A stretch of 64,000 bases of DNA from Planctomycetota bacterium. Its GTDB lineage: Bacteria > Planctomycetota > UBA8108 > SXIK01. The notes under the pieces are model-generated. The model ran no database searches, was not told where the DNA came from, and saw nothing but the letters and a program-made list of their open reading frames with translations. Location of the stretch: the NCBI GenBank assembly GCA_965223265.1, contig OZ244999.1, positions 480,001-544,000 of the forward strand, in the 5' to 3' direction. Shown piece after piece: positions 3,741 through 16,885 of the stretch (position 1 is its first letter; every line of letters begins with the position of its first letter). A program made the position numbers and the translations under genes.

Positions 3741-6700
3741 GTGCCTTCATCATTGACCGTCCCCGTGGGTCCACGCCATGGAGAAACTGTGAGCCAGCGC
3801 TCAACGCGACGAGAAGAATGGGACATCGACGCAGCCCTGCGGATCCTGCAGGCTTCCATCGATCCTTACATTTGGGATCAAGGGCAGGAGCTGTACCGGC
3901 GCGGCGCCGTCAAGGATTTCGCCATGTCGCAGGACGGCAACATTCGCGTGATCGTCCTTGATCCTCGCGATGCGCGGAACTTTTTCGTTAGCGTTCGACG
4001 CGAGCACGATGGCCGGATCGTCTCACATTGCGCGTGTCCGTATCGCTTGAACGGCCGATGTAGACATCAAGTTGTCGCACTCGAGTATTTGCGCGCGATA
4101 GCCGGTGGGGAGGCTCAACCAACCAGTGCCGCCGCCGCTGATGCTGCCGTCGAGTCGCCGCGCGTCAGTGGAGGCGACGTCAGTGATGCGGCGGGGAAAG
4201 CAGGGCCGGTACTCTACCGCCTATTTGACCCTCCATGCGACGTGGTGACAGCGGAGGACGGTTCGCTGCTGCGCCTTGTACTGCTATCGCTCGGCTCGGC
4301 CACGACGGCGCACCGTGTGGCGCTTCAGCTTTTCACCACGACTGGCTGGGGAGAAGTACGGACGCCGGAACTCGATCGCTGGATCGGCCGCGGAGATGTT
4401 GGGCCGCACCCGCGTGATTTGGCGCTTCGATCGACGCTTGCCGGGGATGGAGGCATTCGAAATGACGTCGATTCCGAGACGTTTGGGTATCTTCTGACTG
4501 TCGTCGCCGAGAGTTCCGCGCTGGTTGACCGATCGGGAAATGTGCTTGCTGTCTCACGCGATCCTTGGCGTCTGCGCACCGATGTGGAACGTTCAGGTGA
4601 GACTTCAATCCGCGTGCGTTTCTCGTGCGTCTTCCCAGGGCGCGAGTCGCGTCGATTCGAAGAGGTGGCGCTCGTCCCTTCGACCAGCGCGTGGATCCAA
4701 CTCGACAGTGGCGCGTTCCATCCCCTGATCGCAGCCGTACCGGGGCCGCTACTCGCTGAGGTGCAGGTCGAAGAGCTGAGTGAGATCGCGCCGCCCGAAT
4801 TGGACCAGTTCTTGATCAGCGGCGTGCATCAGCTCGAACGTTTGACTCCCGGCATGTTCTTCATAGAGCCCGGTCTGATTCGAGAGGTGGAAGGTGTAGA
4901 TAGCGCGCGCGTCCGGTTGAGCGCCATTGGCGACGAGTCTAGTGGAGGCTTTGCCGGTCAGCTTGAATTCCTCTACGGCGACGAATGGGTCGAGGCGCCG
5001 AGCGATCCAACGCCTTGGACGATCGATCAAGGCGGCAAGATCCACCGCTACCCTGCGGCGGGGCAGTCCCTCGCAAAGGCGCGACGTGAGCTCGAGAATG
5101 TCGGCTTCCGCCACGCAGATGGCGAATGGCGGCTCGAAGGGGAAGACGCGCTCGAGCGCGTGTTATCACAAGCGCCAGATTCGTTCGTCTCATTCGATCT
5201 GCCGCAGGAAGCAGCCGCGCGTGATTTTGTGAGTCGCGCACCACGCGTCCGTGTTGCGGTAGAGACGACGGACGAGAACGCAGATGGGACCCCGCAGTTG
5301 CGGCTTTCTCTTGAGCTGTTCGATGGCGATCGGCGACTCAGTTTTTCCACCGCTGAATTTGCTGAGCTCACTCCGGCCGGACGTCGAGGCTTCTTTCGCC
5401 TAGAAGACGAATCGATTGTGGATCCACGCCATCCAGGAGTGCGCGATCTCATCGAGCTGCTCGCCGCCGCCCACCGTTCAGGATCTGAACCGAGCCTCGA
5501 GGATGGGCGGCTCTGCCTTTCTGCGCCCGCGAGTGCAGTCGCGCTCATAGCCGACGCCAGCGATGAAGTGGATTTGGAACTTTCGCCGCGGGTCGCCCGT
5601 CTGTGTGAGAGGTTGAGCGGGCATCGGCTGGACGGGTCGGAAGAGATCGACGCATCTGGTTTTCAGGACAGCGTCGTGAAAACGCTGCGTGAGTATCAAC
5701 TCGCAGCCGTTGCATGGTTCGGGGCGCTCGCCGAGTGGGGGCTCGCCGGAGTGCTTGCTGACGAGATGGGACTCGGAAAGACTTTGATGACTCTTGCGCA
5801 CTTCTTCGGGCGCACGACAGCCGGCGCGCGCTCAGGAGAAGCGGCAGAGCCGGGCCATGCGGCGCTACCGGTGTTGGTCGTCTGCCCGACGAGCCTGGTC
5901 TTCAATTGGCTTGACGAGACGCAGCGATTTTTTCCAGAGGTGCGGACGACGTCGCTGCAGGGACTGCCGCGAGAGAAGCGCGAGGCGCTCCTCGGTTCTG
6001 ATACTGATATGATCGTGACCTCCTACGCGCTGATGAGACGCGACCGGGAGGCGTTGGAAGCGCTGCAGTTTCGTGCTGTAGTCCTCGACGAGGCCCAGCA
6101 TGTCAAGAACGCGGCGAGCCAGACGGCGAAGGCCGCGTTTGCGCTCCGGGCGCAGCAGCGCTGGGCGCTCACCGGCACGCCGATGGAAAACCATCTTGGC
6201 GAGATCTGGTCGATCTTCCGTTTTCTGTTGCCGGGATTCCTCGGTACGCAAGACGAGTTCGTCAAGGAATACCGAGAGCCCGCGGAGCGAGGCGACGACA
6301 CGGCTGTGACGCAGTTGCGACGGCGAGTGCGTCCCTTCATCTTGCGCCGCACCAAGACGGAGGTTTTGACGGATCTCCCTGAGCTGATCGAGCAGACGCG
6401 ACGGGTGCCGCTGTCGCCGCTGCAGCGTCAACTCTACGACGCGGAGTTGGCGGCTGCGCGCGAAGTCGTAGAGGGAGCTGAGGGGCCACAGGCGCGCATC
6501 AAGGTTCTCGCTGCGCTGACTCGCCTGCGGCAGATCTGCTGCGATCCGGGATTGATTCTTGACGACGAAGACCTCGCAACACTGCGAACGACTGAGGAGA
6601 CCGTCGTCAGCAGCAAGATGGAGCTACTCCTCGAGTTGCTTGAGGAGTGTATCGATGAACAGCATCGCGTCCTTCTTTTCAGTCAATTCACCAGCATGCT

Positions 6701-7115
6701 TGATCTCATCGAGTTGCGCCTCGACGAACGTAGCGTCGATCGCTGTCGACTCGATGGCGCAACACGCGATCGCGAGGCTCAGGTGCGGCGTTTTCAGGGC
6801 GATGGCGCAGTGCCAATCTTTCTCATCAGTCTCAAGGCTGGCGGCTACGGTCTCAATCTGACCGCGGCCGACATCGTGATTCTTTTCGATCCATGGTGGA
6901 ACCCGGCGACGGAAGCCCAGGCCGTGGCGAGAGCTCATCGCATGGGGCAGATGATGCCCGTGCATGTTCATAAGCTGGTGGCCGCAGACACCGTCGAGGA
7001 AAGAATCCAGGAGCTTCAGGAGACGAAACGAGACCTGGCCTCCCGTCTTCTCGAAACGGGTGAAGATCCGTTCGCGCAGCTGAATCTCGATACCTTGCGC
7101 GAGCTTTTCGCGTAA
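3741..7115 (+). CDS. SWIM zinc-finger SNF2-family helicase (start may be GTG 3789)
   Basis: CACP...CRH SWIM motif; LADEMGLGKT, DEAQ, LTGTPMEN, LKAGGYGLNL, DPWWNPA, RAHRMGQ. Confidence 0.95.
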   Translation: MPSSLTVPVGPRHGETVSQRSTRREEWDIDAALRILQASIDPYIWDQGQELYRRGAVKDFAMSQDGNIRVIVLDPRDARNFFVSVRREHDGRIVSHCACPYRLNGRCRHQVVALEYLRAIAGGEAQPTSAAAADAAVESPRVSGGDVSDAAGKAGPVLYRLFDPPCDVVTAEDGSLLRLVLLSLGSATTAHRVALQLFTTTGWGEVRTPELDRWIGRGDVGPHPRDLALRSTLAGDGGIRNDVDSETFGYLLTVVAESSALVDRSGNVLAVSRDPWRLRTDVERSGETSIRVRFSCVFPGRESRRFEEVALVPSTSAWIQLDSGAFHPLIAAVPGPLLAEVQVEELSEIAPPELDQFLISGVHQLERLTPGMFFIEPGLIREVEGVDSARVRLSAIGDESSGGFAGQLEFLYGDEWVEAPSDPTPWTIDQGGKIHRYPAAGQSLAKARRELENVGFRHADGEWRLEGEDALERVLSQAPDSFVSFDLPQEAAARDFVSRAPRVRVAVETTDENADGTPQLRLSLELFDGDRRLSFSTAEFAELTPAGRRGFFRLEDESIVDPRHPGVRDLIELLAAAHRSGSEPSLEDGRLCLSAPASAVALIADASDEVDLELSPRVARLCERLSGHRLDGSEEIDASGFQDSVVKTLREYQLAAVAWFGALAEWGLAGVLADEMGLGKTLMTLAHFFGRTTAGARSGEAAEPGHAALPVLVVCPTSLVFNWLDETQRFFPEVRTTSLQGLPREKREALLGSDTDMIVTSYALMRRDREALEALQFRAVVLDEAQHVKNAASQTAKAAFALRAQQRWALTGTPMENHLGEIWSIFRFLLPGFLGTQDEFVKEYREPAERGDDTAVTQLRRRVRPFILRRTKTEVLTDLPELIEQTRRVPLSPLQRQLYDAELAAAREVVEGAEGPQARIKVLAALTRLRQICCDPGLILDDEDLATLRTTEETVVSSKMELLLELLEECIDEQHRVLLFSQFTSMLDLIELRLDERSVDRCRLDGATRDREAQVRRFQGDGAVPIFLISLKAGGYGLNLTAADIVILFDPWWNPATEAQAVARAHRMGQMMPVHVHKLVAADTVEERIQELQETKRDLASRLLETGEDPFAQLNLDTLRELFA

Positions 7116-7132
7116 CCCTGCGGTCGAGCGCG

Positions 7133-7256
7133 GAGGCAGAGGCAGAGGCAGAGGCGGAGGCAGAGGCGGAAGCAGAGGCGGAGGCAGAGGCAGAGGCGGA
7201 AGCAGAGGCGGAGGCAGAGGCAGAGGCAGAGGCAGAGGCAGGCAGAGGCAGAGGCA
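7133..7256 (+). repeat. (GAGGCA/GAGGCG/GAAGCA)n microsatellite, leftmost tract
   Basis: About 21 hexamer units read directly; one truncated 4-nt unit near 7241. Confidence 0.97.
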
Positions 7257-7272
7257 CCTATGGTCCGACTGT

Positions 7273-7278
7273 TGTCAA
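7273..7278 (-). promoter_or_regulatory. Outward-facing consensus -35 hexamer (TTGACA) at the element's downstream end; present in all five copies
   Basis: tgtcaa on the + strand just inside the subterminal IR; IS110/IS1111 elements assemble junction promoters on circularisation; matching -10 not identified. Confidence 0.5.
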
Positions 7279-7326
7279 CGGGGGAGCTTTCTTTTCTTGA
7301 TTGTCTTCAATCCGACGTGGGGCAGT

Positions 7327-7503
7327 TGGGTTGCCTGGGGGTCCGGGGGGCGGCGGGTAGAGCGCCCCCGGGCTCTGTGCAGCCCGGAAGGTACCGCACG
7401 CGGGAGAGATCATTCTGGGTTGCCTGGGGGTCCGGGGGGCGGCGGGTAGAGCGCCCCCGGGCTCTGTGCAGCCCGGAAGGTACCGCACGCGGGAGAGATC
7501 ATT
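7327..7503. repeat. 89-bp direct tandem duplication in the IS non-coding end (also 10814-10990 and 14337-14513)
   Basis: TGGGTTGCCTGGGGGTCC...GGGAGAGATCATT starts at 7327 and again at 7416; single copy in IS copies 2 and 4. Confidence 0.95.
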
Positions 7504-7539
7504 TTCGTAGTAGTGCTGTGTTGTCTTTGGGCTGGCGGT

Positions 7540-7800
7540 AAAGAAGCCAAGTGTTCGGTTCGCTCTGAGCGCCGGGGCGGCAAAGCGCCTCGCGGCCAAC
7601 TCCTATGCGTGTCCGCTCTCTGGCGGATCACCTGATACTGCGTTCGCATCGCGGCAGGCGAACCGACAAGGACGGTTCCTTCTGAGAAGCACGGCGGCTT
7701 GGAAAGCCAGCCCAGCCTCTGCTCGAACGCGTCCTACAGTCGGCCAAGAATCCGAGTCAGCCCTGCAGGTCCCTCCGTTTGAGTTGGGTTGGTGTGTTGA
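7540..7800 (-). ncRNA. Putative bridge RNA/seekRNA of the IS element (boundaries approximate; identical copies at offsets +1690, +3487, +5213, +7010)
   Basis: Non-coding region downstream of tnp, as in IS1111-type elements; stem 7663-7678/7725-7743 encloses an internal loop with arms GCAGAGG and UGCUUCU that match the two target strands. Confidence 0.7.
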
Positions 7801-7820
7801 GCCTGTTGCTGGTCATCGAA

Positions 7821-8948
7821 TTAGGAACTGAGCCGTGCCAAGGGAGGTGGTACGTCAGTGCTGAGGAATCGCCAGAGCGAAATGAGCAGCTTTCTGGCTA
7901 AGGCGACGATTCCCGCCTTGCGCGAGCGCTTGGTGCCTGGCCCATAGCGCTGGCAGAACCATTGAGATAGCTGGCTCTGTGGCTGAAAGCGCAGCCAGTT
8001 CCAGGCAGCCTGAACCATGAGTGTGCGTACACGCCCGTTGCCAGCTTTGCTGATTCCTTGCTCGCGTTTGATGTTGTCACTGCGCCAGGGAACGCTCACC
8101 ATTCCTGCCAGGGCTCCGATTTCACGGCGATTGTTGAACTTACGCCAGAAGAACTCGTAGTAGAGCGTTGCGGCAGTGTACATGCCGATGCCGCGCAGGC
8201 TGTTGAGCTTGCCGACTTTCTTGCAGGCCTCCGGCGAGTTGGTGAGCGTTTCGAGAGTCTCGGCCTCAATCTCAGCGATTTGCTCTTCGACAAGCTGCAG
8301 CCGAGCGTGCTCGCGTAGCATGCCTGCCTTGGCATGCGGGGGGATCGCAGATCCATCGGGGCCGCGTAACGTGTCGATGATTTCAGGCAGCTTCTTGAGG
8401 CGGGCGCGGATGCCGAACTTGATCAACATGTCCTTGAGGCGATTGATGTGCCGAGTGCGATCCTTGACAAGGCGCTGACGCTCTCTTGGCAGGCGGCGCT
8501 CGTCCTCGATCTGCACGCTCGGCACATTGACAACGCGCAGTGGGCTGCGCGACGAGCCGTGGTGACGGATCAAAAGATCGAGCATCTTCTCTCCGTCGAG
8601 GCGATCGGTCTTTTGACGCTTGGCGCGCTGATCGACCTCGCAGCTAGCCGGGTCAATGACGGCGTTGTGGATCCCACTGTCTACGAGCCAGCGGTGCAGC
8701 CAGAATCCATCGCGGCCAGCTTCGTAGCAGCTCACCACCTCAGCTTGCGGCGAAAGGCGCAAGCGCGCCTTGGCTTTCGAGAGCTCTTCCTGAAACTCCG
8801 CAAGGTTTCCCGCCTCGACCGTCCTGCAGCGCGGCCGGCTCCCCGCAACACCGCTGACGAGCTTCCACGTTGTGTTGCCAACGTCAATTGCCACGTGAAG
8901 AACTTCGCTCATGTCGGTAAGCTGTCCCTGGGTCGTTCTTGTTGCCAT
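7821..8948 (-). CDS. IS110-family DEDD transposase/recombinase, copy 1
   Basis: AIDV, CYEAG, KTDRLD (RuvC-like DEDD), SLRGIG, PWRSD (conserved Ser), GISKAGNGRVR, ALARKL; AGGAG RBS. Confidence 0.97.
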   Translation of the reverse strand: MATRTTQGQLTDMSEVLHVAIDVGNTTWKLVSGVAGSRPRCRTVEAGNLAEFQEELSKAKARLRLSPQAEVVSCYEAGRDGFWLHRWLVDSGIHNAVIDPASCEVDQRAKRQKTDRLDGEKMLDLLIRHHGSSRSPLRVVNVPSVQIEDERRLPRERQRLVKDRTRHINRLKDMLIKFGIRARLKKLPEIIDTLRGPDGSAIPPHAKAGMLREHARLQLVEEQIAEIEAETLETLTNSPEACKKVGKLNSLRGIGMYTAATLYYEFFWRKFNNRREIGALAGMVSVPWRSDNIKREQGISKAGNGRVRTLMVQAAWNWLRFQPQSQLSQWFCQRYGPGTKRSRKAGIVALARKLLISLWRFLSTDVPPPLARLSS

Positions 8949-8999
8949 CTCTTCACTCCTAAAAAAGACTATGGTACACGAGGACGGCCCATAGTTTCT

Positions 9000-9035
9000 G
9001 AGGCGGAGGCAGAGGCAGAGGCAGAGGCAGAGGCA
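9000..9035 (+). repeat. Microsatellite spacer, 6 x GAGGCR
   Basis: Counted directly. Confidence 0.97.
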
Positions 9036-10689
9036 CCTATGGTCCGACTGTTGTCAACGGGGGAGCTTTCTTTTCTTGATTGTCTTCAATCCGACGTGGG
9101 GCAGTTGGGTTGCCTGGGGGTCCGGGGGGCGGCGGGTAGAGCGCCCCCGGGCTCTGTGCAGCCCGGAAGGTACCGCACGCGGGAGAGATCATTTTCGTAG
9201 TAGTGCTGTGTTGTCTTTGGGCTGGCGGTAAAGAAGCCAAGTGTTCGGTTCGCTCTGAGCGCCGGGGCGGCAAAGCGCCTCGCGGCCAACTCCTATGCGT
9301 GTCCGCTCTCTGGCGGATCACCTGATACTGCGTTCGCATCGCGGCAGGCGAACCGACAAGGACGGTTCCTTCTGAGAAGCACGGCGGCTTGGAAAGCCAG
9401 CCCAGCCTCTGCTCGAACGCGTCCTACAGTCGGCCAAGAATCCGAGTCAGCCCTGCAGGTCCCTCCGTTTGAGTTGGGTTGGTGTGTTGAGCCTGTTGCT
9501 GGTCATCGAATTAGGAACTGAGCCGTGCCAACGGAGGTGGTACGTCAGTGCTGAGGAATCGCCAGAGCGAAATGAGCAGCTTTCTGGCTAAGGCGACGAT
9601 TCCCGCCTTGCGCGAGCGCTTGGTGCCTGGCCCATAGCGCTGGCAGAACCATTGAGATAGCTGGCTCTGTGGCTGAAAGCGCAGCCAGTTCCAGGCAGCC
9701 TGAACCATGAGTGTGCGTACACGCCCGTTGCCAGCTTTGCTGATTCCTTGCTCGCGTTTGATGTTGTCACTGCGCCAGGGAACGCTCACCATTCCTGCCA
9801 GGGCTCCGATTTCACGGCGATTGTTGAACTTACGCCAGAAGAACTCGTAGTAGAGCGTTGCGGCAGTGTACATGCCGATGCCGCGCAGGCTGTTGAGCTT
9901 GCCGACTTTCTTGCAGGCCTCCGGCGAGTTGGTGAGCGTTTCGAGAGTCTCGGCCTCAATCTCAGCGATTTGCTCTTCGACAAGCTGCAGCCGAGCGTGC
10001 TCGCGTAGCATGCCTGCCTTGGCATGCGGGGGGATCGCAGATCCATCGGGGCCGCGTAACGTGTCGATGATTTCAGGCAGCTTCTTGAGGCGGGCGCGGA
10101 TGCCGAACTTGATCAACATGTCCTTGAGGCGATTGATGTGCCGAGTGCGATCCTTGACAAGGCGCTGACGCTCTCTTGGCAGGCGGCGCTCGTCCTCGAT
10201 CTGCACGCTCGGCACGTTGACAACGCGCAGTGGGCTGCGCGACGAGCCGTGGTGACGGATCAAAAGATCGAGCATCTTCTCTCCGTCGAGGCGATCGGTC
10301 TTTTGACGCTTGGCGCGCTGATCGACCTCGCAGCTAGCCGGGTCAATGACGGCGTTGTGGATCCCACTGTCTACGAGCCAACGGTGCAGCCAGAATCCAT
10401 CGCGGCCAGCTTCGTAGCAGCTCACCACCTCAGCTTGCGGCGAAAGGCGCAAGCGCGCCTTGGCTTTCGAGAGCTCTTCCTGAAACTCCGCAAGGTTTCC
10501 CGCCTCGACCGTCCTGCAGCGCGGCCGGCTCCCCGCAACACCGCTGACGAGCTTCCACGTTGTGTTGCCAACGTCAATTGCCACGTGAAGAACTTCGCTC
10601 ATGTCGGTAAGCTGTCCCTGGGTCGTTCTTGTTGCCATCTCTTCACTCCTAAAAAAGACTATGGTACACGAGGACGGCCCATAGTTTCT
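9036..10689 (-). mobile_element. IS110-family element, copy 2, short allele (1654 bp)
   Basis: Same ends as copy 1; lacks the 89-bp duplication; synonymous SNPs at 9532, 10216 and 10381. Confidence 0.95.
9511..10638 (-). CDS. IS110-family transposase, copy 2
   Basis: Protein identical to copy 1 (375 aa). Confidence 0.97.
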   Translation of the reverse strand: MATRTTQGQLTDMSEVLHVAIDVGNTTWKLVSGVAGSRPRCRTVEAGNLAEFQEELSKAKARLRLSPQAEVVSCYEAGRDGFWLHRWLVDSGIHNAVIDPASCEVDQRAKRQKTDRLDGEKMLDLLIRHHGSSRSPLRVVNVPSVQIEDERRLPRERQRLVKDRTRHINRLKDMLIKFGIRARLKKLPEIIDTLRGPDGSAIPPHAKAGMLREHARLQLVEEQIAEIEAETLETLTNSPEACKKVGKLNSLRGIGMYTAATLYYEFFWRKFNNRREIGALAGMVSVPWRSDNIKREQGISKAGNGRVRTLMVQAAWNWLRFQPQSQLSQWFCQRYGPGTKRSRKAGIVALARKLLISLWRFLSTDVPPPLARLSS

Positions 10690-10743
10690 GAGGCGGAGGC
10701 AGAGGCAGAGGCAGAGGCAGAGGCGGAGGCAGAGGCAGAGGCA
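10690..10743 (+). repeat. Microsatellite spacer, 9 x GAGGCR
   Basis: Counted directly. Confidence 0.97.
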
Positions 10744-12486
10744 CCTATGGTCCGACTGTTGTCAACGGGGGAGCTTTCTTTTCTTGATTGTCTTCAATCC
10801 GACGTGGGGCAGTTGGGTTGCCTGGGGGTCCGGGGGGCGGCGGGTAGAGCGCCCCCGGGCTCTGTGCAGCCCGGAAGGTACCGCACGCGGGAGAGATCAT
10901 TCTGGGTTGCCTGGGGGTCCGGGGGGCGGCGGGTAGAGCGCCCCCGGGCTCTGTGCAGCCCGGAAGGTACCGCACGCGGGAGAGATCATTTTCGTAGTAG
11001 TGCTGTGTTGTCTTTGGGCTGGCGGTAAAGAAGCCAAGTGTTCGGTTCGCTCTGAGCGCCGGGGCGGCAAAGCGCCTCGCGGCCAACTCCTATGCGTGTC
11101 CGCTCTCTGGCGGATCACCTGATACTGCGTTCGCATCGCGGCAGGCGAACCGACAAGGACGGTTCCTTCTGAGAAGCACGGCGGCTTGGAAAGCCAGCCC
11201 AGCCTCTGCTCGAACGCGTCCTACAGTCGGCCAAGAATCCGAGTCAGCCCTGCAGGTCCCTCCGTTTGAGTTGGGTTGGTGTGTTGAGCCTGTTGCTGGT
11301 CATCGAATTAGGAACTGAGCCGTGCCAAGGGAGGTGGTACGTCAGTGCTGAGGAATCGCCAGAGCGAAATGAGCAGCTTTCTGGCTAAGGCGACGATTCC
11401 CGCCTTGCGCGAGCGCTTGGTGCCTGGCCCATAGCGCTGGCAGAACCATTGAGATAGCTGGCTCTGTGGCTGAAAGCGCAGCCAGTTCCAGGCAGCCTGA
11501 ACCATGAGTGTGCGTACACGCCCGTTGCCAGCTTTGCTGATTCCTTGCTCGCGTTTGATGTTGTCACTGCGCCAGGGAACGCTCACCATTCCTGCCAGGG
11601 CTCCGATTTCACGGCGATTGTTGAACTTACGCCAGAAGAACTCGTAGTAGAGCGTTGCGGCAGTGTACATGCCGATGCCGCGCAGGCTGTTGAGCTTGCC
11701 GACTTTCTTGCAGGCCTCCGGCGAGTTGGTGAGCGTTTCGAGAGTCTCGGCCTCAATCTCAGCGATTTGCTCTTCGACAAGCTGCAGCCGAGCGTGCTCG
11801 CGTAGCATGCCTGCCTTGGCATGCGGGGGGATCGCAGATCCATCGGGGCCGCGTAACGTGTCGATGATTTCAGGCAGCTTCTTGAGGCGGGCGCGGATGC
11901 CGAACTTGATCAACATGTCCTTGAGGCGATTGATGTGCCGAGTGCGATCCTTGACAAGGCGCTGACGCTCTCTTGGCAGGCGGCGCTCGTCCTCGATCTG
12001 CACGCTCGGCACATTGACAACGCGCAGTGGGCTGCGCGACGAGCCGTGGTGACGGATCAAAAGATCGAGCATCTTCTCTCCGTCGAGGCGATCGGTCTTT
12101 TGACGCTTGGCGCGCTGATCGACCTCGCAGCTAGCCGGGTCAATGACGGCGTTGTGGATCCCACTGTCTACGAGCCAGCGGTGCAGCCAGAATCCATCGC
12201 GGCCAGCTTCGTAGCAGCTCACCACCTCAGCTTGCGGCGAAAGGCGCAAGCGCGCCTTGGCTTTCGAGAGCTCTTCCTGAAACTCCGCAAGGTTTCCCGC
12301 CTCGACCGTCCTGCAGCGCGGCCGGCTCCCCGCAACACCGCTGACGAGCTTCCACGTTGTGTTGCCAACGTCAATTGCCACGTGAAGAACTTCGCTCATG
12401 TCGGTAAGCTGTCCCTGGGTCGTTCTTGTTGCCATCTCTTCACTCCTAAAAAAGACTATGGTACACGAGGACGGCCCATAGTTTCT
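10744..12486 (-). mobile_element. IS110-family element, copy 3, long allele (1743 bp)
   Basis: Same ends, duplication and SNP state as copy 1. Confidence 0.95.
11308..12435 (-). CDS. IS110-family transposase, copy 3
   Basis: Identical 375-aa protein. Confidence 0.97.
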   Translation of the reverse strand: MATRTTQGQLTDMSEVLHVAIDVGNTTWKLVSGVAGSRPRCRTVEAGNLAEFQEELSKAKARLRLSPQAEVVSCYEAGRDGFWLHRWLVDSGIHNAVIDPASCEVDQRAKRQKTDRLDGEKMLDLLIRHHGSSRSPLRVVNVPSVQIEDERRLPRERQRLVKDRTRHINRLKDMLIKFGIRARLKKLPEIIDTLRGPDGSAIPPHAKAGMLREHARLQLVEEQIAEIEAETLETLTNSPEACKKVGKLNSLRGIGMYTAATLYYEFFWRKFNNRREIGALAGMVSVPWRSDNIKREQGISKAGNGRVRTLMVQAAWNWLRFQPQSQLSQWFCQRYGPGTKRSRKAGIVALARKLLISLWRFLSTDVPPPLARLSS

Positions 12487-12558
12487 GAGGCAGAGGCAGA
12501 GGCAGAGGCAGAGGCGGAGGCAGAGGCAGAGGCAGAGGCAGAGGCGGAGGCAGAGGCA
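12487..12558 (+). repeat. Microsatellite spacer, 12 x GAGGCR
   Basis: Counted directly. Confidence 0.97.
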
Positions 12559-14212
12559 CCTATGGTCCGACTGTTGTCAACGGGGGAGCTTTCTTTTCTT
12601 GATTGTCTTCAATCCGACGTGGGGCAGTTGGGTTGCCTGGGGGTCCGGGGGGCGGCGGGTAGAGCGCCCCCGGGCTCTGTGCAGCCCGGAAGGTACCGCA
12701 CGCGGGAGAGATCATTTTCGTAGTAGTGCTGTGTTGTCTTTGGGCTGGCGGTAAAGAAGCCAAGTGTTCGGTTCGCTCTGAGCGCCGGGGCGGCAAAGCG
12801 CCTCGCGGCCAACTCCTATGCGTGTCCGCTCTCTGGCGGATCACCTGATACTGCGTTCGCATCGCGGCAGGCGAACCGACAAGGACGGTTCCTTCTGAGA
12901 AGCACGGCGGCTTGGAAAGCCAGCCCAGCCTCTGCTCGAACGCGTCCTACAGTCGGCCAAGAATCCGAGTCAGCCCTGCAGGTCCCTCCGTTTGAGTTGG
13001 GTTGGTGTGTTGAGCCTGTTGCTGGTCATCGAATTAGGAACTGAGCCGTGCCAAGGGAGGTGGTACGTCAGTGCTGAGGAATCGCCAGAGCGAAATGAGC
13101 AGCTTTCTGGCTAAGGCGACGATTCCCGCCTTGCGCGAGCGCTTGGTGCCTGGCCCATAGCGCTGGCAGAACCATTGAGATAGCTGGCTCTGTGGCTGAA
13201 AGCGCAGCCAGTTCCAGGCAGCCTGAACCATGAGTGTGCGTACACGCCCGTTGCCAGCTTTGCTGATTCCTTGCTCGCGTTTGATGTTGTCACTGCGCCA
13301 GGGAACGCTCACCATTCCTGCCAGGGCTCCGATTTCACGGCGATTGTTGAACTTACGCCAGAAGAACTCGTAGTAGAGCGTTGCGGCAGTGTACATGCCG
13401 ATGCCGCGCAGGCTGTTGAGCTTGCCGACTTTCTTGCAGGCCTCCGGCGAGTTGGTGAGCGTTTCGAGAGTCTCGGCCTCAATCTCAGCGATTTGCTCTT
13501 CGACAAGCTGCAGCCGAGCGTGCTCGCGTAGCATGCCTGCCTTGGCATGCGGGGGGATCGCAGATCCATCGGGGCCGCGTAACGTGTCGATGATTTCAGG
13601 CAGCTTCTTGAGGCGGGCGCGGATGCCGAACTTGATCAACATGTCCTTGAGGCGATTGATGTGCCGAGTGCGATCCTTGACAAGGCGCTGACGCTCTCTT
13701 GGCAGGCGGCGCTCGTCCTCGATCTGCACGCTCGGCACGTTGACAACGCGCAGTGGGCTGCGCGACGAGCCGTGGTGACGGATCAAAAGATCGAGCATCT
13801 TCTCTCCGTCGAGGCGATCGGTCTTTTGACGCTTGGCGCGCTGATCGACCTCGCAGCTAGCCGGGTCAATGACGGCGTTGTGGATCCCACTGTCTACGAG
13901 CCAACGGTGCAGCCAGAATCCATCGCGGCCAGCTTCGTAGCAGCTCACCACCTCAGCTTGCGGCGAAAGGCGCAAGCGCGCCTTGGCTTTCGAGAGCTCT
14001 TCCTGAAACTCCGCAAGGTTTCCCGCCTCGACCGTCCTGCAGCGCGGCCGGCTCCCCGCAACACCGCTGACGAGCTTCCACGTTGTGTTGCCAACGTCAA
14101 TTGCCACGTGAAGAACTTCGCTCATGTCGGTAAGCTGTCCCTGGGTCGTTCTTGTTGCCATCTCTTCACTCCTAAAAAAGACTATGGTACACGAGGACGG
14201 CCCATAGTTTCT
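12559..14212 (-). mobile_element. IS110-family element, copy 4, short allele (1654 bp)
   Basis: Same ends; no duplication; shares the SNPs at 13739 and 13904 with copy 2. Confidence 0.95.
13034..14161 (-). CDS. IS110-family transposase, copy 4
   Basis: Identical 375-aa protein. Confidence 0.97.
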   Translation of the reverse strand: MATRTTQGQLTDMSEVLHVAIDVGNTTWKLVSGVAGSRPRCRTVEAGNLAEFQEELSKAKARLRLSPQAEVVSCYEAGRDGFWLHRWLVDSGIHNAVIDPASCEVDQRAKRQKTDRLDGEKMLDLLIRHHGSSRSPLRVVNVPSVQIEDERRLPRERQRLVKDRTRHINRLKDMLIKFGIRARLKKLPEIIDTLRGPDGSAIPPHAKAGMLREHARLQLVEEQIAEIEAETLETLTNSPEACKKVGKLNSLRGIGMYTAATLYYEFFWRKFNNRREIGALAGMVSVPWRSDNIKREQGISKAGNGRVRTLMVQAAWNWLRFQPQSQLSQWFCQRYGPGTKRSRKAGIVALARKLLISLWRFLSTDVPPPLARLSS

Positions 14213-14266
14213 GAGGCGGAGGCAGAGGCAGAGGCAGAGGCAGAGGCGGAGGCAGAGGCAGAGGCA
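14213..14266 (+). repeat. Microsatellite spacer, 9 x GAGGCR (identical to 10690-10743)
   Basis: Counted directly. Confidence 0.97.
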
Positions 14267-16009
14267 CCTATGGTCCGACTGTTGTCAACGGGGGAGCTTT
14301 CTTTTCTTGATTGTCTTCAATCCGACGTGGGGCAGTTGGGTTGCCTGGGGGTCCGGGGGGCGGCGGGTAGAGCGCCCCCGGGCTCTGTGCAGCCCGGAAG
14401 GTACCGCACGCGGGAGAGATCATTCTGGGTTGCCTGGGGGTCCGGGGGGCGGCGGGTAGAGCGCCCCCGGGCTCTGTGCAGCCCGGAAGGTACCGCACGC
14501 GGGAGAGATCATTTTCGTAGTAGTGCTGTGTTGTCTTTGGGCTGGCGGTAAAGAAGCCAAGTGTTCGGTTCGCTCTGAGCGCCGGGGCGGCAAAGCGCCT
14601 CGCGGCCAACTCCTATGCGTGTCCGCTCTCTGGCGGATCACCTGATACTGCGTTCGCATCGCGGCAGGCGAACCGACAAGGACGGTTCCTTCTGAGAAGC
14701 ACGGCGGCTTGGAAAGCCAGCCCAGCCTCTGCTCGAACGCGTCCTACAGTCGGCCAAGAATCCGAGTCAGCCCTGCAGGTCCCTCCGTTTGAGTTGGGTT
14801 GGTGTGTTGAGCCTGTTGCTGGTCATCGAATTAGGAACTGAGCCGTGCCAAGGGAGGTGGTACGTCAGTGCTGAGGAATCGCCAGAGCGAAATGAGCAGC
14901 TTTCTGGCTAAGGCGACGATTCCCGCCTTGCGCGAGCGCTTGGTGCCTGGCCCATAGCGCTGGCAGAACCATTGAGATAGCTGGCTCTGTGGCTGAAAGC
15001 GCAGCCAGTTCCAGGCAGCCTGAACCATGAGTGTGCGTACACGCCCGTTGCCAGCTTTGCTGATTCCTTGCTCGCGTTTGATGTTGTCACTGCGCCAGGG
15101 AACGCTCACCATTCCTGCCAGGGCTCCGATTTCACGGCGATTGTTGAACTTACGCCAGAAGAACTCGTAGTAGAGCGTTGCGGCAGTGTACATGCCGATG
15201 CCGCGCAGGCTGTTGAGCTTGCCGACTTTCTTGCAGGCCTCCGGCGAGTTGGTGAGCGTTTCGAGAGTCTCGGCCTCAATCTCAGCGATTTGCTCTTCGA
15301 CAAGCTGCAGCCGAGCGTGCTCGCGTAGCATGCCTGCCTTGGCATGCGGGGGGATCGCAGATCCATCGGGGCCGCGTAACGTGTCGATGATTTCAGGCAG
15401 CTTCTTGAGGCGGGCGCGGATGCCGAACTTGATCAACATGTCCTTGAGGCGATTGATGTGCCGAGTGCGATCCTTGACAAGGCGCTGACGCTCTCTTGGC
15501 AGGCGGCGCTCGTCCTCGATCTGCACGCTCGGCACATTGACAACGCGCAGTGGGCTGCGCGACGAGCCGTGGTGACGGATCAAAAGATCGAGCATCTTCT
15601 CTCCGTCGAGGCGATCGGTCTTTTGACGCTTGGCGCGCTGATCGACCTCGCAGCTAGCCGGGTCAATGACGGCGTTGTGGATCCCACTGTCTACGAGCCA
15701 GCGGTGCAGCCAGAATCCATCGCGGCCAGCTTCGTAGCAGCTCACCACCTCAGCTTGCGGCGAAAGGCGCAAGCGCGCCTTGGCTTTCGAGAGCTCTTCC
15801 TGAAACTCCGCAAGGTTTCCCGCCTCGACCGTCCTGCAGCGCGGCCGGCTCCCCGCAACACCGCTGACGAGCTTCCACGTTGTGTTGCCAACGTCAATTG
15901 CCACGTGAAGAACTTCGCTCATGTCGGTAAGCTGTCCCTGGGTCGTTCTTGTTGCCATCTCTTCACTCCTAAAAAAGACTATGGTACACGAGGACGGCCC
16001 ATAGTTTCT
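14267..16009 (-). mobile_element. IS110-family element, copy 5, long allele (1743 bp)
   Basis: Same ends and duplication as copies 1 and 3. Confidence 0.95.
14831..15958 (-). CDS. IS110-family transposase, copy 5
   Basis: Identical 375-aa protein from ATG 15958; the ORF-track extension to 16438 is spurious. Confidence 0.95.
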   Translation of the reverse strand: MATRTTQGQLTDMSEVLHVAIDVGNTTWKLVSGVAGSRPRCRTVEAGNLAEFQEELSKAKARLRLSPQAEVVSCYEAGRDGFWLHRWLVDSGIHNAVIDPASCEVDQRAKRQKTDRLDGEKMLDLLIRHHGSSRSPLRVVNVPSVQIEDERRLPRERQRLVKDRTRHINRLKDMLIKFGIRARLKKLPEIIDTLRGPDGSAIPPHAKAGMLREHARLQLVEEQIAEIEAETLETLTNSPEACKKVGKLNSLRGIGMYTAATLYYEFFWRKFNNRREIGALAGMVSVPWRSDNIKREQGISKAGNGRVRTLMVQAAWNWLRFQPQSQLSQWFCQRYGPGTKRSRKAGIVALARKLLISLWRFLSTDVPPPLARLSS

Positions 16010-16075
16010 GAGGCAGAGGCGGAGGCAGAGGCAGAGGCAGAGGCAGAAACAGCGGCAGAGGCAGAAAAGAGGCGG
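16010..16075 (+). repeat. Microsatellite, rightmost tract (GAGGCR degenerating to GAAACA/GCGGCA)
   Basis: Read directly. Confidence 0.93.
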
Positions 16076-16644: not shown

Positions 16645-16885
16645 AGAGGCGGAGACAGAACCAGATACAGAGTCAGAAACAGAGGCGGAGACAGAATACA
16701 GAACCAGATACAGAGTCAGAAGCAGAAACAGAAACGGATACAGAAACGGATACGGAGGCAGAAGCGATTACCGGCACGCCCACGCCCACGCCCACGCCCA
16801 CGCCCACGCCCACGCCCACGCCCACGCACTCACAAACGCCCACGCACTCACAAACGCCCACGCAAACGCCCTCGCCCTCGCCCAC
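16645..16885 (+). repeat. Degenerate GAnnCR hexamer tract followed by a (CACGCC)n microsatellite
   Basis: GAGACA/GAACCA/GATACA/GAAACA units at 16645-16766; CACGCC units at 16775-16885. Confidence 0.9.

What the first reader, a model, noticed from the sequence alone, without database searches (positions are those of the whole stretch)
7663..7743. Candidate bridge/seekRNA target-binding loop whose arms spell both strands of the microsatellite
Seen (minus-strand RNA): stem CCGAC-UGU-AGGACG...GUUC pairs with GAAC-CGUCCU-U-GUCGG and encloses arm 1 AGCAGAGGC (7723-7715), an inner hairpin GGCUU-UCC-AAGCC, and arm 2 UGCUUCU (7691-7685). Arm 1 is identical to the purine strand (GCAGAGGC). Arm 2 equals the pyrimidine strand TGCCTCT with one change that would give a G-U wobble. 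Known: bridge/seekRNAs use an internal loop with two short guides, one per target strand, and IS1111-type RNAs lie downstream of tnp. Inference: a natural guide for a simple repeat, and a compact reprogrammable recombinase candidate.
Basis: partly seen in the sequence, partly recalled or inferred. Interest (0 to 1): 0.88.

Follow-up and report, generated by a model that had tools for sequence, protein, structure and literature searches.

The report
Guide RNA loop aimed at microsatellite
The flagged hairpin is very probably the target-reading loop of the guide RNA of a jumping gene (IS110/IS1111 type) that steers it into a six-letter simple repeat, which is why five copies sit head to tail in one repeat tract; it is a new example of a mechanism described in 2024.

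Summary
In detail: every stem, arm and coordinate is in the sequence. The window holds five head-to-tail copies of a 1.65-1.74 kb IS110-family element with IS1111-like layout. Each copy lies inside a (GCCTCT)n microsatellite, and three more copies elsewhere in the genome lie in similar repeats.

In about 130 distant relatives (41-49% protein identity) the same position after the transposase gene holds an outer stem, a 12-nt 5' arm, an inner hairpin and a 3' arm. Their 5' arms change with the DNA flanking the element: 59 of 81 arm/flank combinations give at least 7 contiguous pairs, against 2.5% of mismatched pairings.

The query's arm 1 (GCAGAGGC, 7722-7715) pairs with 8 of 8 bases of its right junction. 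A donor-binding-loop model built without the query hits directly beside the hairpin (E 2.9e-11). Models of the target loop alone do not reach significance.

Arm 2 needs correcting.

No RNA data exist. Verdict: a bridge/seekRNA target-binding loop, a new member of a known kind. Its unusual points are the repeat target, a donor/target core mismatch and an SD catalytic motif.

The parts
7257..8999 (-). IS copy 1 (1743 nt): AGAAACTATGG...CCATAGG in tnp sense. The following TG (7256-7255) is read as the target's own core.
   Evidence: Junctions of 8 copies compared; copies compared.
7821..8948 (-). tnp, 375 aa, IS110-family DEDD/Ser transposase.
   Evidence: Pfam PF01548 at 40.1 bits and PF02371 at 53.3 bits. 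NCBIfam NF033542 'IS110 family RNA-guided transposase' at 194.4 bits, cutoff 140. E76, D115, D118 and S290 are invariant in 158 relatives.
7545..7750 (-). Predicted bridge/seekRNA, about 200 nt, holding the target-binding and donor-binding loops. The true ends are unknown.
   Evidence: Fold; identical in all 8 copies; position equivalent to the relatives' RNA.
7663..7743 (-). Target-binding loop (the finding): outer stem, 12-nt 5' arm (7724-7713), inner hairpin, 14-nt 3' arm (7692-7679).
   Evidence: Same anatomy as the relatives' consensus, in which 11 of 13 pairs show compensatory changes.
7715..7722 (-). Right-target guide GCAGAGGC. It pairs with the top strand G+CCTCTGC at the right junction (8 Watson-Crick pairs).
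   Evidence: The relatives' arms against this flank reach at most 4.
7693..7712 (-). Inner hairpin GGC(U)GGCUU-UCC-AAGCCGCC separating the two arms.
7680..7687 (-). Left-target guide in the homology register: (U)CUC has the same sense as the left flank ..(C/T)CTC. It is followed by AG (core-binding) and AA (matches nt 3-4 of the left end; handshake-like).
7685..7691 (-). It pairs with arm 1 in the free RNA and is an alternative, shifted left-guide register.
7553..7664 (-). Donor-binding loop. The 5' arm ACGCAGUAUCAGG holds AGUAUC (7639-7634), which faces left-end GAAACT. The inner hairpin is at 7627-7612. The 3' arm holds CAUAGGAGU (7607-7599), which has the same sense as right-end CATAGG plus core.
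   Evidence: Model R2, built without the query: 42.7 bits, E 2.9e-11 at 7594-7691. Arms.
8985..8994 (-). Left subterminal inverted repeat CTATGGGCCG, preceded by the terminal extension AGAAA (8999-8995).
   Evidence: Read. 9 of 10 letters are complementary to the right repeat.
7258..7267 (-). Right subterminal inverted repeat CGGACCATAG. TTGACA lies at 7278-7273.
   Evidence: Read. The TTGAC-N-CATAG motif is shared with relatives.
9036..10689 (-). IS copy 2 (short form, 1654 nt); its target-binding loop is at 9353-9433.
10744..12486 (-). IS copy 3 (long form); its target-binding loop is at 11150-11230.
12559..14212 (-). IS copy 4 (short form); its target-binding loop is at 12876-12956.
14267..16009 (-). 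IS copy 5 (long form); its target-binding loop is at 14673-14753.
7133..7256 (.). (GAGGCA)n microsatellite, the target. Further pieces between and after the copies lie at 9000-9035, 10690-10743, 12487-12558, 14213-14266 and 16010-16065.
   Evidence: Tandem Repeats Finder.

Best explanation
Region 7663-7743 (minus strand) encodes the target-binding loop of a roughly 200-nt bridge/seekRNA (about 7750-7545). The RNA lies in the 3' non-coding end of an IS110-family element with IS1111-like layout.

Proposed mechanism:
- The transposase holds the RNA.
- The 5' arm (GCAGAGGC) pairs with the transposase-sense ('top') strand of the repeat to the right of the crossover.
- The 3' arm ((U)CUC-AG-AA) pairs with the other strand to the left of it. 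Its last two letters match the element's own left end.
- The neighbouring donor-binding loop (7664-7553) reads the element's two ends in the same way.
- The element is therefore recombined, in one orientation, between ...GCCTC and TGCCTCT... of (GCCTCT)n. Because the target recurs every 6 bp, copies pile up head to tail.

Shown here: the anatomy; homology of the donor loop; change of the guides with the flanks in relatives; and the fit of the query's guides to its own junctions.

Inferred: that the RNA is made, that it binds the protein, and the order of strand exchange.
For: 1. Element and family. The transposase matches PF01548, PF02371 and NF033542. Its best solved relative is the IS621 transposase, though weakly (E 0.0027). 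All 8 copies sit in the same junction context..CTC-AG-AAAC.. and ..CATAGG-TG-(C/T)CTCTGCC.

2. Shared anatomy. 55 relatives give a consensus of outer stem, 12-nt arm, hairpin and 3' arm; 11 of 13 pairs show compensatory changes. The query's arms are 12 and 14 nt, and its 3' arm ends CAGAAG where relatives have (U/C/A/G)AGAUG.

3. Guides track targets. With six registers allowed, 59 of 81 unique arm+flank combinations reach at least 7 contiguous pairs (G-U allowed), against 2.5% of 6386 mismatched pairings. With Watson-Crick pairs only the figures are 48 of 81 against 0.45%. 53 of 65 distinct arms reach 7.

4. The query's 5' arm makes 8 contiguous Watson-Crick pairs with its right junction. Relatives' arms on that flank reach at most 4, and the query's arm on the relatives' flanks at most 6.

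5. The 3' arm matches the left flank directly before AGA(U/A): mean 2.29 nt against 0.44 in mismatched pairings, and at least 3 nt in 32 of 96 combinations against 2.2%. Only this register is enriched. The query has 3 such matches, 4 with a wobble.

6. Donor loop. Model R2, built from 35 relatives without the query, finds all five window copies at 42.7 bits (E 2.9e-11); the next best match scores 10.6 bits. The hit abuts the hairpin.
   - Its 5' arm tracks left-end nt 3-6 in relatives: ATAC/GUAU in 75 of 75 loci, ATGC/GCAU in 30 of 34, ATCC/GGAU in 8 of 8.
   - Its 3' arm repeats the right end. The query has AUAGG in both RNA and end where relatives have AUAGA; L039 and L047 show parallel changes.

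7. The order (top-strand match 5' of bottom-strand match) is the one reported for IS1111 seekRNAs (PMC11187229, section 9). Read on the opposite strand, the layout is that of IS621, including a CT core and handshake positions (passages of PMC11208160 and PMC11208158).
Against: - Covariance models of the target loop alone do not recover the query. R1 gives no match at the locus among 46 matches with E up to 10. R3 gives 11.2 bits, E 2.5, at 7669-7735, below several chance hits.
- Rfam has no match.
- No relative closer than 49% protein identity was found, so covariation cannot be tested within the query's own lineage.
- 22 of 81 relatives' combinations fall below 7 pairs, and 9 of 96 have no left-flank match at all.
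- The query's 5'-arm register is one base off the two registers common in relatives.
- The left guide is only 3-4 nt long, and a second register exists.
- Each donor guide has one mismatch to the element's own ends.
- In the minimum-energy fold the two arms pair with each other.
- The residue after the catalytic Ser is D, where 154 of 158 relatives have G.
- No promoter-like site was found.
Confidence: 0.85

Rival explanations
1. Same RNA and same loop, but the left guide is the reader's UGCUUCU (7691-7685). It would pair with the bottom strand of TGCCTC plus the first core base T of the uninterrupted repeat, so that the two guides tile 15 contiguous base pairs. AGAA would then be only a conserved scaffold or handshake motif.
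For: With G-U allowed, this register gives 6 matches to the flank, or 7 when the target's core T is included, against 4 in the homology register. It would also read the target's real core base (T), which the homology register mismatches.
Against: In 96 relatives' combinations only shift 0 is enriched: mean 2.29 against 0.44, while shifts 1 and 2 give 0.54 and 0.49 against 0.34 and 0.41. In a periodic pyrimidine target a shifted match is expected by construction. The same letters also pair with arm 1.
Confidence: 0.2
2. The hairpin is only a structural element of the tnp 3' untranslated region (a terminator, stabiliser or processing site). Its arms pair with each other, and the 8-mer identity to the repeat is chance or a captured piece of target.
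For: The minimum-energy fold pairs the arms. An 8-mer of the repeat somewhere in a shuffled element occurs in 596 of 2000 shuffles. Target-loop models are not significant.
Against: The 8-mer sits in the arm that tracks the flank in relatives, one base from their register. The adjacent donor loop is homologous at E 2.9e-11. There is no T-run after the stem, and no terminator-like site was called on this strand.
Confidence: 0.06
3. The repeat is chosen by the protein or by an unusual DNA structure of the purine/pyrimidine tract, not by RNA pairing. The five copies then arose mainly by unequal recombination.
For: The short-copy/54-nt-spacer/long-copy unit occurs twice with identical spacers, so at least one copy pair is probably a segmental duplication. 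The left guide is short.
Against: Three further copies lie at separate loci in degenerate repeats, with the same junction to the base and in the orientation set by the repeat strand. Relatives with non-repeat targets show guide/flank matching.
Confidence: 0.05

Closest known systems
seekRNAs of IS1111-family elements (ISEc11, ISPa11, ISKpn4, ISPst6; Siddiquee et al. 2024, PMC11187229; abstract and sections 6, 9, 13 read)
   Same: The long non-coding region lies downstream of tnp. There are subterminal inverted repeats with terminal extensions. [quoted passage not shown] Each element has its own target.
   Different: The transposase is 375 aa, against 330-350 aa stated for the IS1111 family. 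It has SD instead of SG/TG after the P-containing motif. The target is a hexanucleotide repeat. No biochemical evidence exists here.
IS621 bridge RNA (Durrant et al. 2024, PMC11208160; Hiraizumi et al. 2024, PMC11208158; passages read)
   Same: There are two internal loops, each with two guides that read opposite strands on either side of a 2-nt core. Read on the other strand, the relatives' core AG is CT, as in IS621. The 3' guide of each loop carries extra positions that match the other partner, like handshake guides.
   Different: The RNA lies at the other end of the element, and the guide order is reversed relative to tnp. The proteins are only marginally alike (E 0.0027). In the query the donor and target cores differ (CT against CA in the IS621 frame).
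ISPpu9 / ISPpu10 of Pseudomonas putida (PMC12288879; 10.64898/2026.03.19.712850; search-listing abstracts only)
   Same: These are IS110-family elements that insert into a repeated intergenic sequence, so the host offers many identical targets.
   Different: Their targets are dispersed palindromic repeats, not a tandem simple repeat. No head-to-tail arrays inside one repeat tract are mentioned in the abstracts I saw.

Membership tests
IS110 family (IS1111-like organisation) | N-terminal DEDD (RuvC-like) domain | tested here: met
   PF01548 scores 40.1 bits against a cutoff of 29. E76, D115 and D118 are invariant in 158 aligned proteins. Position 22 is D in the query and in 8 others, and E in 147.
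IS110 family (IS1111-like organisation) | C-terminal Tnp domain with catalytic Ser in a G..P....S(G) motif | tested here: met
   PF02371 scores 53.3 bits. S290 is invariant and aligns with the Ser of YESG in IS621. The next residue is D, not G; only 4 of 158 proteins have D there.
IS110 family (IS1111-like organisation) | Subterminal inverted repeats of 7-17 bp with short terminal extensions (as stated in PMC11208160 and PMC11187229) | tested here: met
   CTATGGGCCG (8994-8985) and CGGACCATAG (7267-7258) are complementary at 9 of 10 positions. The extensions are AGAAA and G.
IS110 family (IS1111-like organisation) | Longer non-coding end downstream of tnp | tested here: met
   There are 564 nt after the stop codon (7820-7257) and 51 nt before the start.
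IS110 family (IS1111-like organisation) | Transposase length 330-350 aa (IS1111 family, PMC11187229 section 6) | tested here: not met
   The protein is 375 aa, and relatives' reading frames were also over 330 aa. I therefore call the layout IS1111-like without filing the element in the IS1111 family proper.
Bridge RNA / seekRNA | Internal loop with two guides complementary to opposite strands of the target, flanking the crossover | tested here: met
   8 pairs on the right and 3-4 plus a core base on the left, at the observed junctions of 8 of 8 copies.
Bridge RNA / seekRNA | Guides change with the target among related elements | tested here: met
   In relatives 59 of 81 combinations reach the threshold, against 2.5% of mismatched pairings. 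This could not be tested within the query's own lineage, because no close relative was found.
Bridge RNA / seekRNA | Second loop that reads the element's own ends | tested here: met
   R2 hits at E 2.9e-11. The arms track the left-end and right-end variants in relatives. The query's two donor guides each carry one mismatch.
Bridge RNA / seekRNA | Structural homology of the target loop itself to relatives' loops (covariance model) | tested here: inconclusive
   R1 gives no hit. R3 gives 11.2 bits, E 2.5, at the right place.
Bridge RNA / seekRNA | The RNA is expressed, bound by the transposase and needed for transposition | not testable with these tools
   No RNA run holds the stretch. Only DNA contigs could be laid on it.

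The most novel reading that the evidence does not exclude
Donor and target cores differ by one base: AG against TG in tnp sense, or CT against CA in the IS621 frame. The eight junction pairs therefore record which strand's product was inherited.

All 8 copies carry the donor core at the left end and the target core at the right end. This is the outcome expected if the cut falls 3' of the core on one strand only and replication copies that transferred strand. A staggered double-strand exchange should give both outcomes.

This would be a natural footprint of single-strand ('top-strand') insertion in an IS1111-like lineage. Two further points belong to this reading. The microsatellite-aimed guides are complementary to each other, and so may mask themselves until the protein opens them. 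And the catalytic motif is SD rather than SG.
Probability: 0.3. Interest if true: 0.6.

Novelty: new member of a known kind. Interest (0 to 1): 0.5.

Why it matters
RNA-guided IS110/IS1111 recombinases are being developed as genome-writing tools, so natural diversity in guide layout is useful.

This element adds three things:
- It is a divergent lineage, at most 49% identical to anything found in three large collections.
- Its natural target is a simple repeat. That explains head-to-tail arrays of insertion sequences inside microsatellites, and shows what guides look like when the two target halves are nearly the same sequence.
- It offers a natural donor/target core mismatch that can be used to ask which strand is transferred.

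For genome annotation, it shows that the 'spacers' between tandem IS copies are pieces of the original target, not part of the element.

Tried and rejected
Rfam scan of 6500-13500 at E up to 1: no match.

Target-loop covariance models:
- R1 gave nothing at the locus.
- R3 gave a match in the right place, but at E 2.5.
I therefore do not claim model-based homology for the target loop itself.

Plain similarity searches of the non-coding end against relatives gave only weak hits, and these fell in the donor-loop part (blastn E 0.19 or worse; nhmmer best E 0.0027).

My first fixed-register scoring of the 5' arm gave a two-peaked result, because relatives use two registers. I re-scored with six registers for observed and mismatched pairings alike.

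A first parse of the donor 5' arm anchored on GGTG was unreliable (7 of 46 combinations pairing). I replaced it with model-based alignments.

I first thought the fourth letter of AGA(U/A) tracked the left end. The counts are 78 AGAT/AGAT and 5 AGAA/AGAA, but also 2 AGAA/AGAT and a few other discordant combinations. The AGAA group is one close-knit set, so I do not claim covariation at that letter.

Closer relatives were sought in genome contigs, in 400 other genomes of the same phylum (3 matched, best 47-48%) and in metagenome contigs. None exceeded 49% identity.

phmmer against solved structures at E 0.001 found nothing. At E 10, IS621 came first.

No RNA holder was listed among the public runs. 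Contigs of four runs laid on 6900-9300 showed no circle junction or empty site. One contig skips the 89-nt duplication, and the collapsed IS contig carries the two synonymous variants of the short copies.

No promoter-like site was called in 7200-9050.

The predicted circle junction is absent from the chromosome, as expected. The RNA-ideal target CTC-AG-CCTCTGC occurs once in the genome and is empty.

Literature searches for IS110/bridge RNA together with microsatellite or simple repeat returned nothing relevant. This covers the held library only. Supplementary tables of Durrant et al. and Siddiquee et al. were not seen, and they may list repeat targets.

Full report
WHAT IS THERE

The window carries five head-to-tail copies of one insertion sequence on the minus strand: 7257-8999, 9036-10689, 10744-12486, 12559-14212 and 14267-16009. 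They are separated by 36-72 nt of (GAGGCA)n and flanked by more of the same repeat.

The whole genome holds eight full copies and two right-end remnants.
- Three copies are 1743 nt long and identical to each other.
- Five copies are 1654 nt long. They lack one unit of an 89-nt tandem duplication and differ by 2-4 substitutions.
- All substitutions are synonymous.
- The 206 nt spanning 7545-7750 are identical in all eight copies.

Each copy encodes a 375-aa protein that matches PF01548 and PF02371. It also matches NCBIfam NF033542, 'IS110 family RNA-guided transposase', at 194.4 bits against a cutoff of 140.

In tnp sense the element reads AGAAA-CTATGGGCCG ... CGGACCATAG-G. The subterminal inverted repeats agree at 9 of 10 positions. 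There are 51 nt before tnp and 564 nt after it. This is the IS1111-like layout described in PMC11187229 (section 6) and in PMC11208160 (passages read).

THE OBSERVATION

The local fold has z -2.63; 3 of 200 shuffles fold as well. It contains the outer stem and the inner hairpin. It also pairs arm 1 with arm 2, because two guides for the two strands of a 6-bp repeat are necessarily complementary to each other.

GCAGAGGC is the only stretch of 7 or more letters in the element that is identical to a strand of the repeat. Such an 8-mer somewhere in 1743 nt is not rare, however (596 of 2000 shuffles). The argument therefore has to rest on position and on relatives.

RELATIVES

No close relative exists in the collections searched.
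- The best matches are 41-49% identical in species-representative genomes (190 of 515 candidate stretches confirmed, 80 kept).
- In the same phylum, 3 of 400 other genomes matched at E 1e-40 or better, the two nearest at 47-48%.
- In JGI metagenomes 297 of 597 candidates were confirmed, 80 were kept, and identity was 41-48%.

These relatives share the layout. Their left end reads (A/G)GA(T/A/C)NCTATG and their right end reads TTGAC-N8-16-CATAGAAG.

A MAFFT alignment of the region after tnp places the query's hairpin over a conserved module of the relatives.

For 55 non-identical relatives, RNAalifold gives an outer stem, a 12-nt 5' arm, an inner hairpin and a 3' arm that ends AGAUG. 11 of 13 pairs show compensatory changes.

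THE DECISIVE TEST

They do not stay constant.

5' arm against the right flank:
- I took arms from model-based alignments of 133 loci.
- I scored the 5' arm against the DNA that follows the right end, allowing six registers for real and mismatched pairings alike.
- 59 of 81 unique arm+flank combinations reach at least 7 contiguous pairs, against 2.5% of 6386 mismatched pairings.
- With Watson-Crick pairs only, the figures are 48 of 81 against 0.45%.
- 53 of 65 distinct arms reach 7.
- 22 combinations fall short, and several of these have a single internal mismatch.
- Related loci are not independent, so these are counts, not probabilities.

The query's 12-nt arm GAGCAGAGGCUG makes 8 contiguous Watson-Crick pairs with G+CCTCTGC at its right junction. 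Its register is one base off the two registers common in relatives. Relatives' arms on that flank reach at most 4.

3' arm against the left flank:
- It matches the left flank directly before AGA(U/A), with a mean of 2.29 nt against 0.44.
- 32 of 96 combinations reach at least 3 nt, against 2.2% of mismatched pairings.
- 9 of 96 have no match at all.
- Shifting the register by 1-4 nt removes the signal.

In the query this register gives CUC, or UCUC with a wobble, followed by AGAA (7687-7680). It gives 6-7 matches including a wobble, but only because the target is periodic. I keep it as a rival at 0.2.

THE SECOND LOOP

A covariance model of the segment following the target loop was built from 35 relatives without the query. 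It finds all five window copies at 7594-7691 and equivalent places, at 42.7 bits and E 2.9e-11. The next best match in 64 kb scores 10.6 bits.

Its 13-nt 5' arm tracks left-end nt 3-6 in relatives:
- ATAC with GUAU in 75 of 75 loci
- ATGC with GCAU in 30 of 34 loci
- ATCC with GGAU in 8 of 8 loci

Its 3' arm repeats the right end. Relatives have CACGGAUAGAAG beside CATAGAAG. L039 has AGAGG in both and L047 has CAUAUAAG in both. The query has CAUAGG in both.

Each of the query's donor guides carries one mismatch to its own end: AGUAUC against GAAACT, and CAUAGGAG against CATAGG+TG.

By contrast, models of the target loop alone do not recover the query. R1 gives nothing, and R3 gives 11.2 bits at E 2.5 in the right place. 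Homology of the flagged hairpin itself therefore rests on four things: its position beside a homologous donor loop, its arm lengths, the CAGAAG end of its 3' arm, and the fit of its guides.

MECHANISM AND COMPARISON

In IS621 the left guides pair with the bottom strand and the right guides with the top strand. The core is included in each pairing (PMC11208160, passage).

Here the 5' arm reads the top strand on the right and the 3' arm reads the bottom strand on the left. This is the reversed order that PMC11187229 (section 9) reports for IS1111 seekRNAs.

Read on the opposite strand, the layout becomes that of IS621, and the relatives' AG at both junctions becomes the CT core.

Two handshake-like features appear:
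- The two letters after the core-binding AG in the target loop's 3' arm match left-end nt 3-4.
- The letter after AGAAG in the donor loop's 3' arm is compatible with the first right-flank base in 73 of 76 combinations. It is identical in 43, against 21.2 expected.
These behave like the handshake guides of IS621 (PMC11208158, passages). This equivalence is my inference.

AN ODDITY

The repeat offers TG where the RNA and the left junction have AG. All 8 copies read ..CTC-AG-AAAC.. on the left and ..CATAGG-TG-(C/T)CTC.. on the right, and the flanks join into an unbroken repeat.

If the cut is 3' of the core on the first-exchanged strand, as in IS621, this is the product of that strand. A staggered exchange of both strands should leave half of the descendants with the cores swapped.

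Two preprints, of which I saw only the abstracts, argue for top-strand insertion and copy-and-paste. The copies here come from at most four loci, and at least one pair is probably a segmental duplication (identical 54-nt spacers). The evidence is therefore suggestive only.

LIMITS

No RNA data exist: no RNA holder was listed and only contigs could be laid. No promoter-like site was called.

The residue after the catalytic Ser is D, where 154 of 158 relatives have G. The near-identical copies at separate repeat loci argue that the element has moved recently.

The genome holds 60 occurrences of the 12-mer CTCTGCCTCTGC. There are eight loci with perfect arrays of at least three units, and most are unoccupied.

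Only 2 of 140 relatives' loci have a periodic flank. I found no paper on a microsatellite target in the held library; supplements were not seen.

VERDICT

The finding is real and its main interpretation is supported: this is the target-binding loop of a bridge/seekRNA. It is a new, divergent member of a kind described in 2024, with an unusual natural target and some instructive details. It is not a new kind of system.

Noticed in passing
window 7327-7503 (also 10814-10990 and 14337-14513): An 89-nt exact tandem duplication lies in the non-coding end, between the RNA and the right end. It is present in 3 of the 8 copies. Long and short copies alternate in the array, and the unit of short copy, 54-nt spacer and long copy occurs twice with identical spacers. 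This suggests that a segmental duplication occurred as well as insertions.
   Followed up: partly
own genome G000:C1:6414624-6414687 (L009) and 5827833-5827927 (L010): Two solitary right-end remnants (94% and 81% identical to the last 60-105 nt of the element) have no tnp. One abuts GTCTCC/GCCTCT-like repeats. The other is followed by CG rather than TG, and then by other short repeats.
   Followed up: partly
window 7273-7278 with 8990-8999: TTGACA lies near the right end, and AACTAT/TACTAT-like letters lie in the left end. In a circle they would sit 17-19 nt apart. This motif pair is shared with relatives (TTGAC-N-CATAGAAG + ATACTATG) and looks like a promoter assembled only at the circle junction. 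That reading is an inference, made from recalled knowledge of other IS110 elements.
   Followed up: no
P0001 residues 286-291 (window about 8076-8093, minus strand): The catalytic motif reads VPWRSD where relatives read (T/A)P(S/T)PY(A/S)SG. D follows the Ser in only 4 of 158 aligned proteins.
   Followed up: partly
loci L051, L061, L063, L064, L069: Related elements in Caballeronia, Paraburkholderia and Rhodanobacter all have the same right flank, TCTTACTGTGTCA, but different left flanks. It is as if they target the end of another mobile element. An uninterrupted copy of that sequence was seen in L051.
   Followed up: no
loci L098 and L132: Two relatives also lie beside tandem repeats (an 11-nt and a 9-nt period). 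These are the only 2 of 140 loci with an exact periodic run of at least 24 nt in a flank.
   Followed up: partly
relatives, donor loop 3' arm (alignments A5, A6): The letter after AGAAG tracks the first base of the right flank: G with G or A, and U with C or T, in 73 of 76 combinations. This is a handshake-like position in an IS1111-like clade.
   Followed up: partly
window 16650-16885: Beyond the last copy the tract continues as other hexamer repeats, (ACAGAA)n and (CACGCC)n. The 1124-aa ORF 3741-7115, which ends 18 nt before the microsatellite, contains LDEAQHVKN. That reads like a SNF2-type helicase motif, but this is recalled and was not tested.
   Followed up: no
loci L109, L115, L123, L145, L147, L156: A metagenomic subgroup shares the query's left end (AGAAACTATG) and the CAGAAGG end of its 3' arm. 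It matches 6 nt of its left flank (CCGGTC). Between the RNA and the right end it carries a long GC-rich palindrome flanked by A- and T-runs, which looks like a terminator.
   Followed up: no
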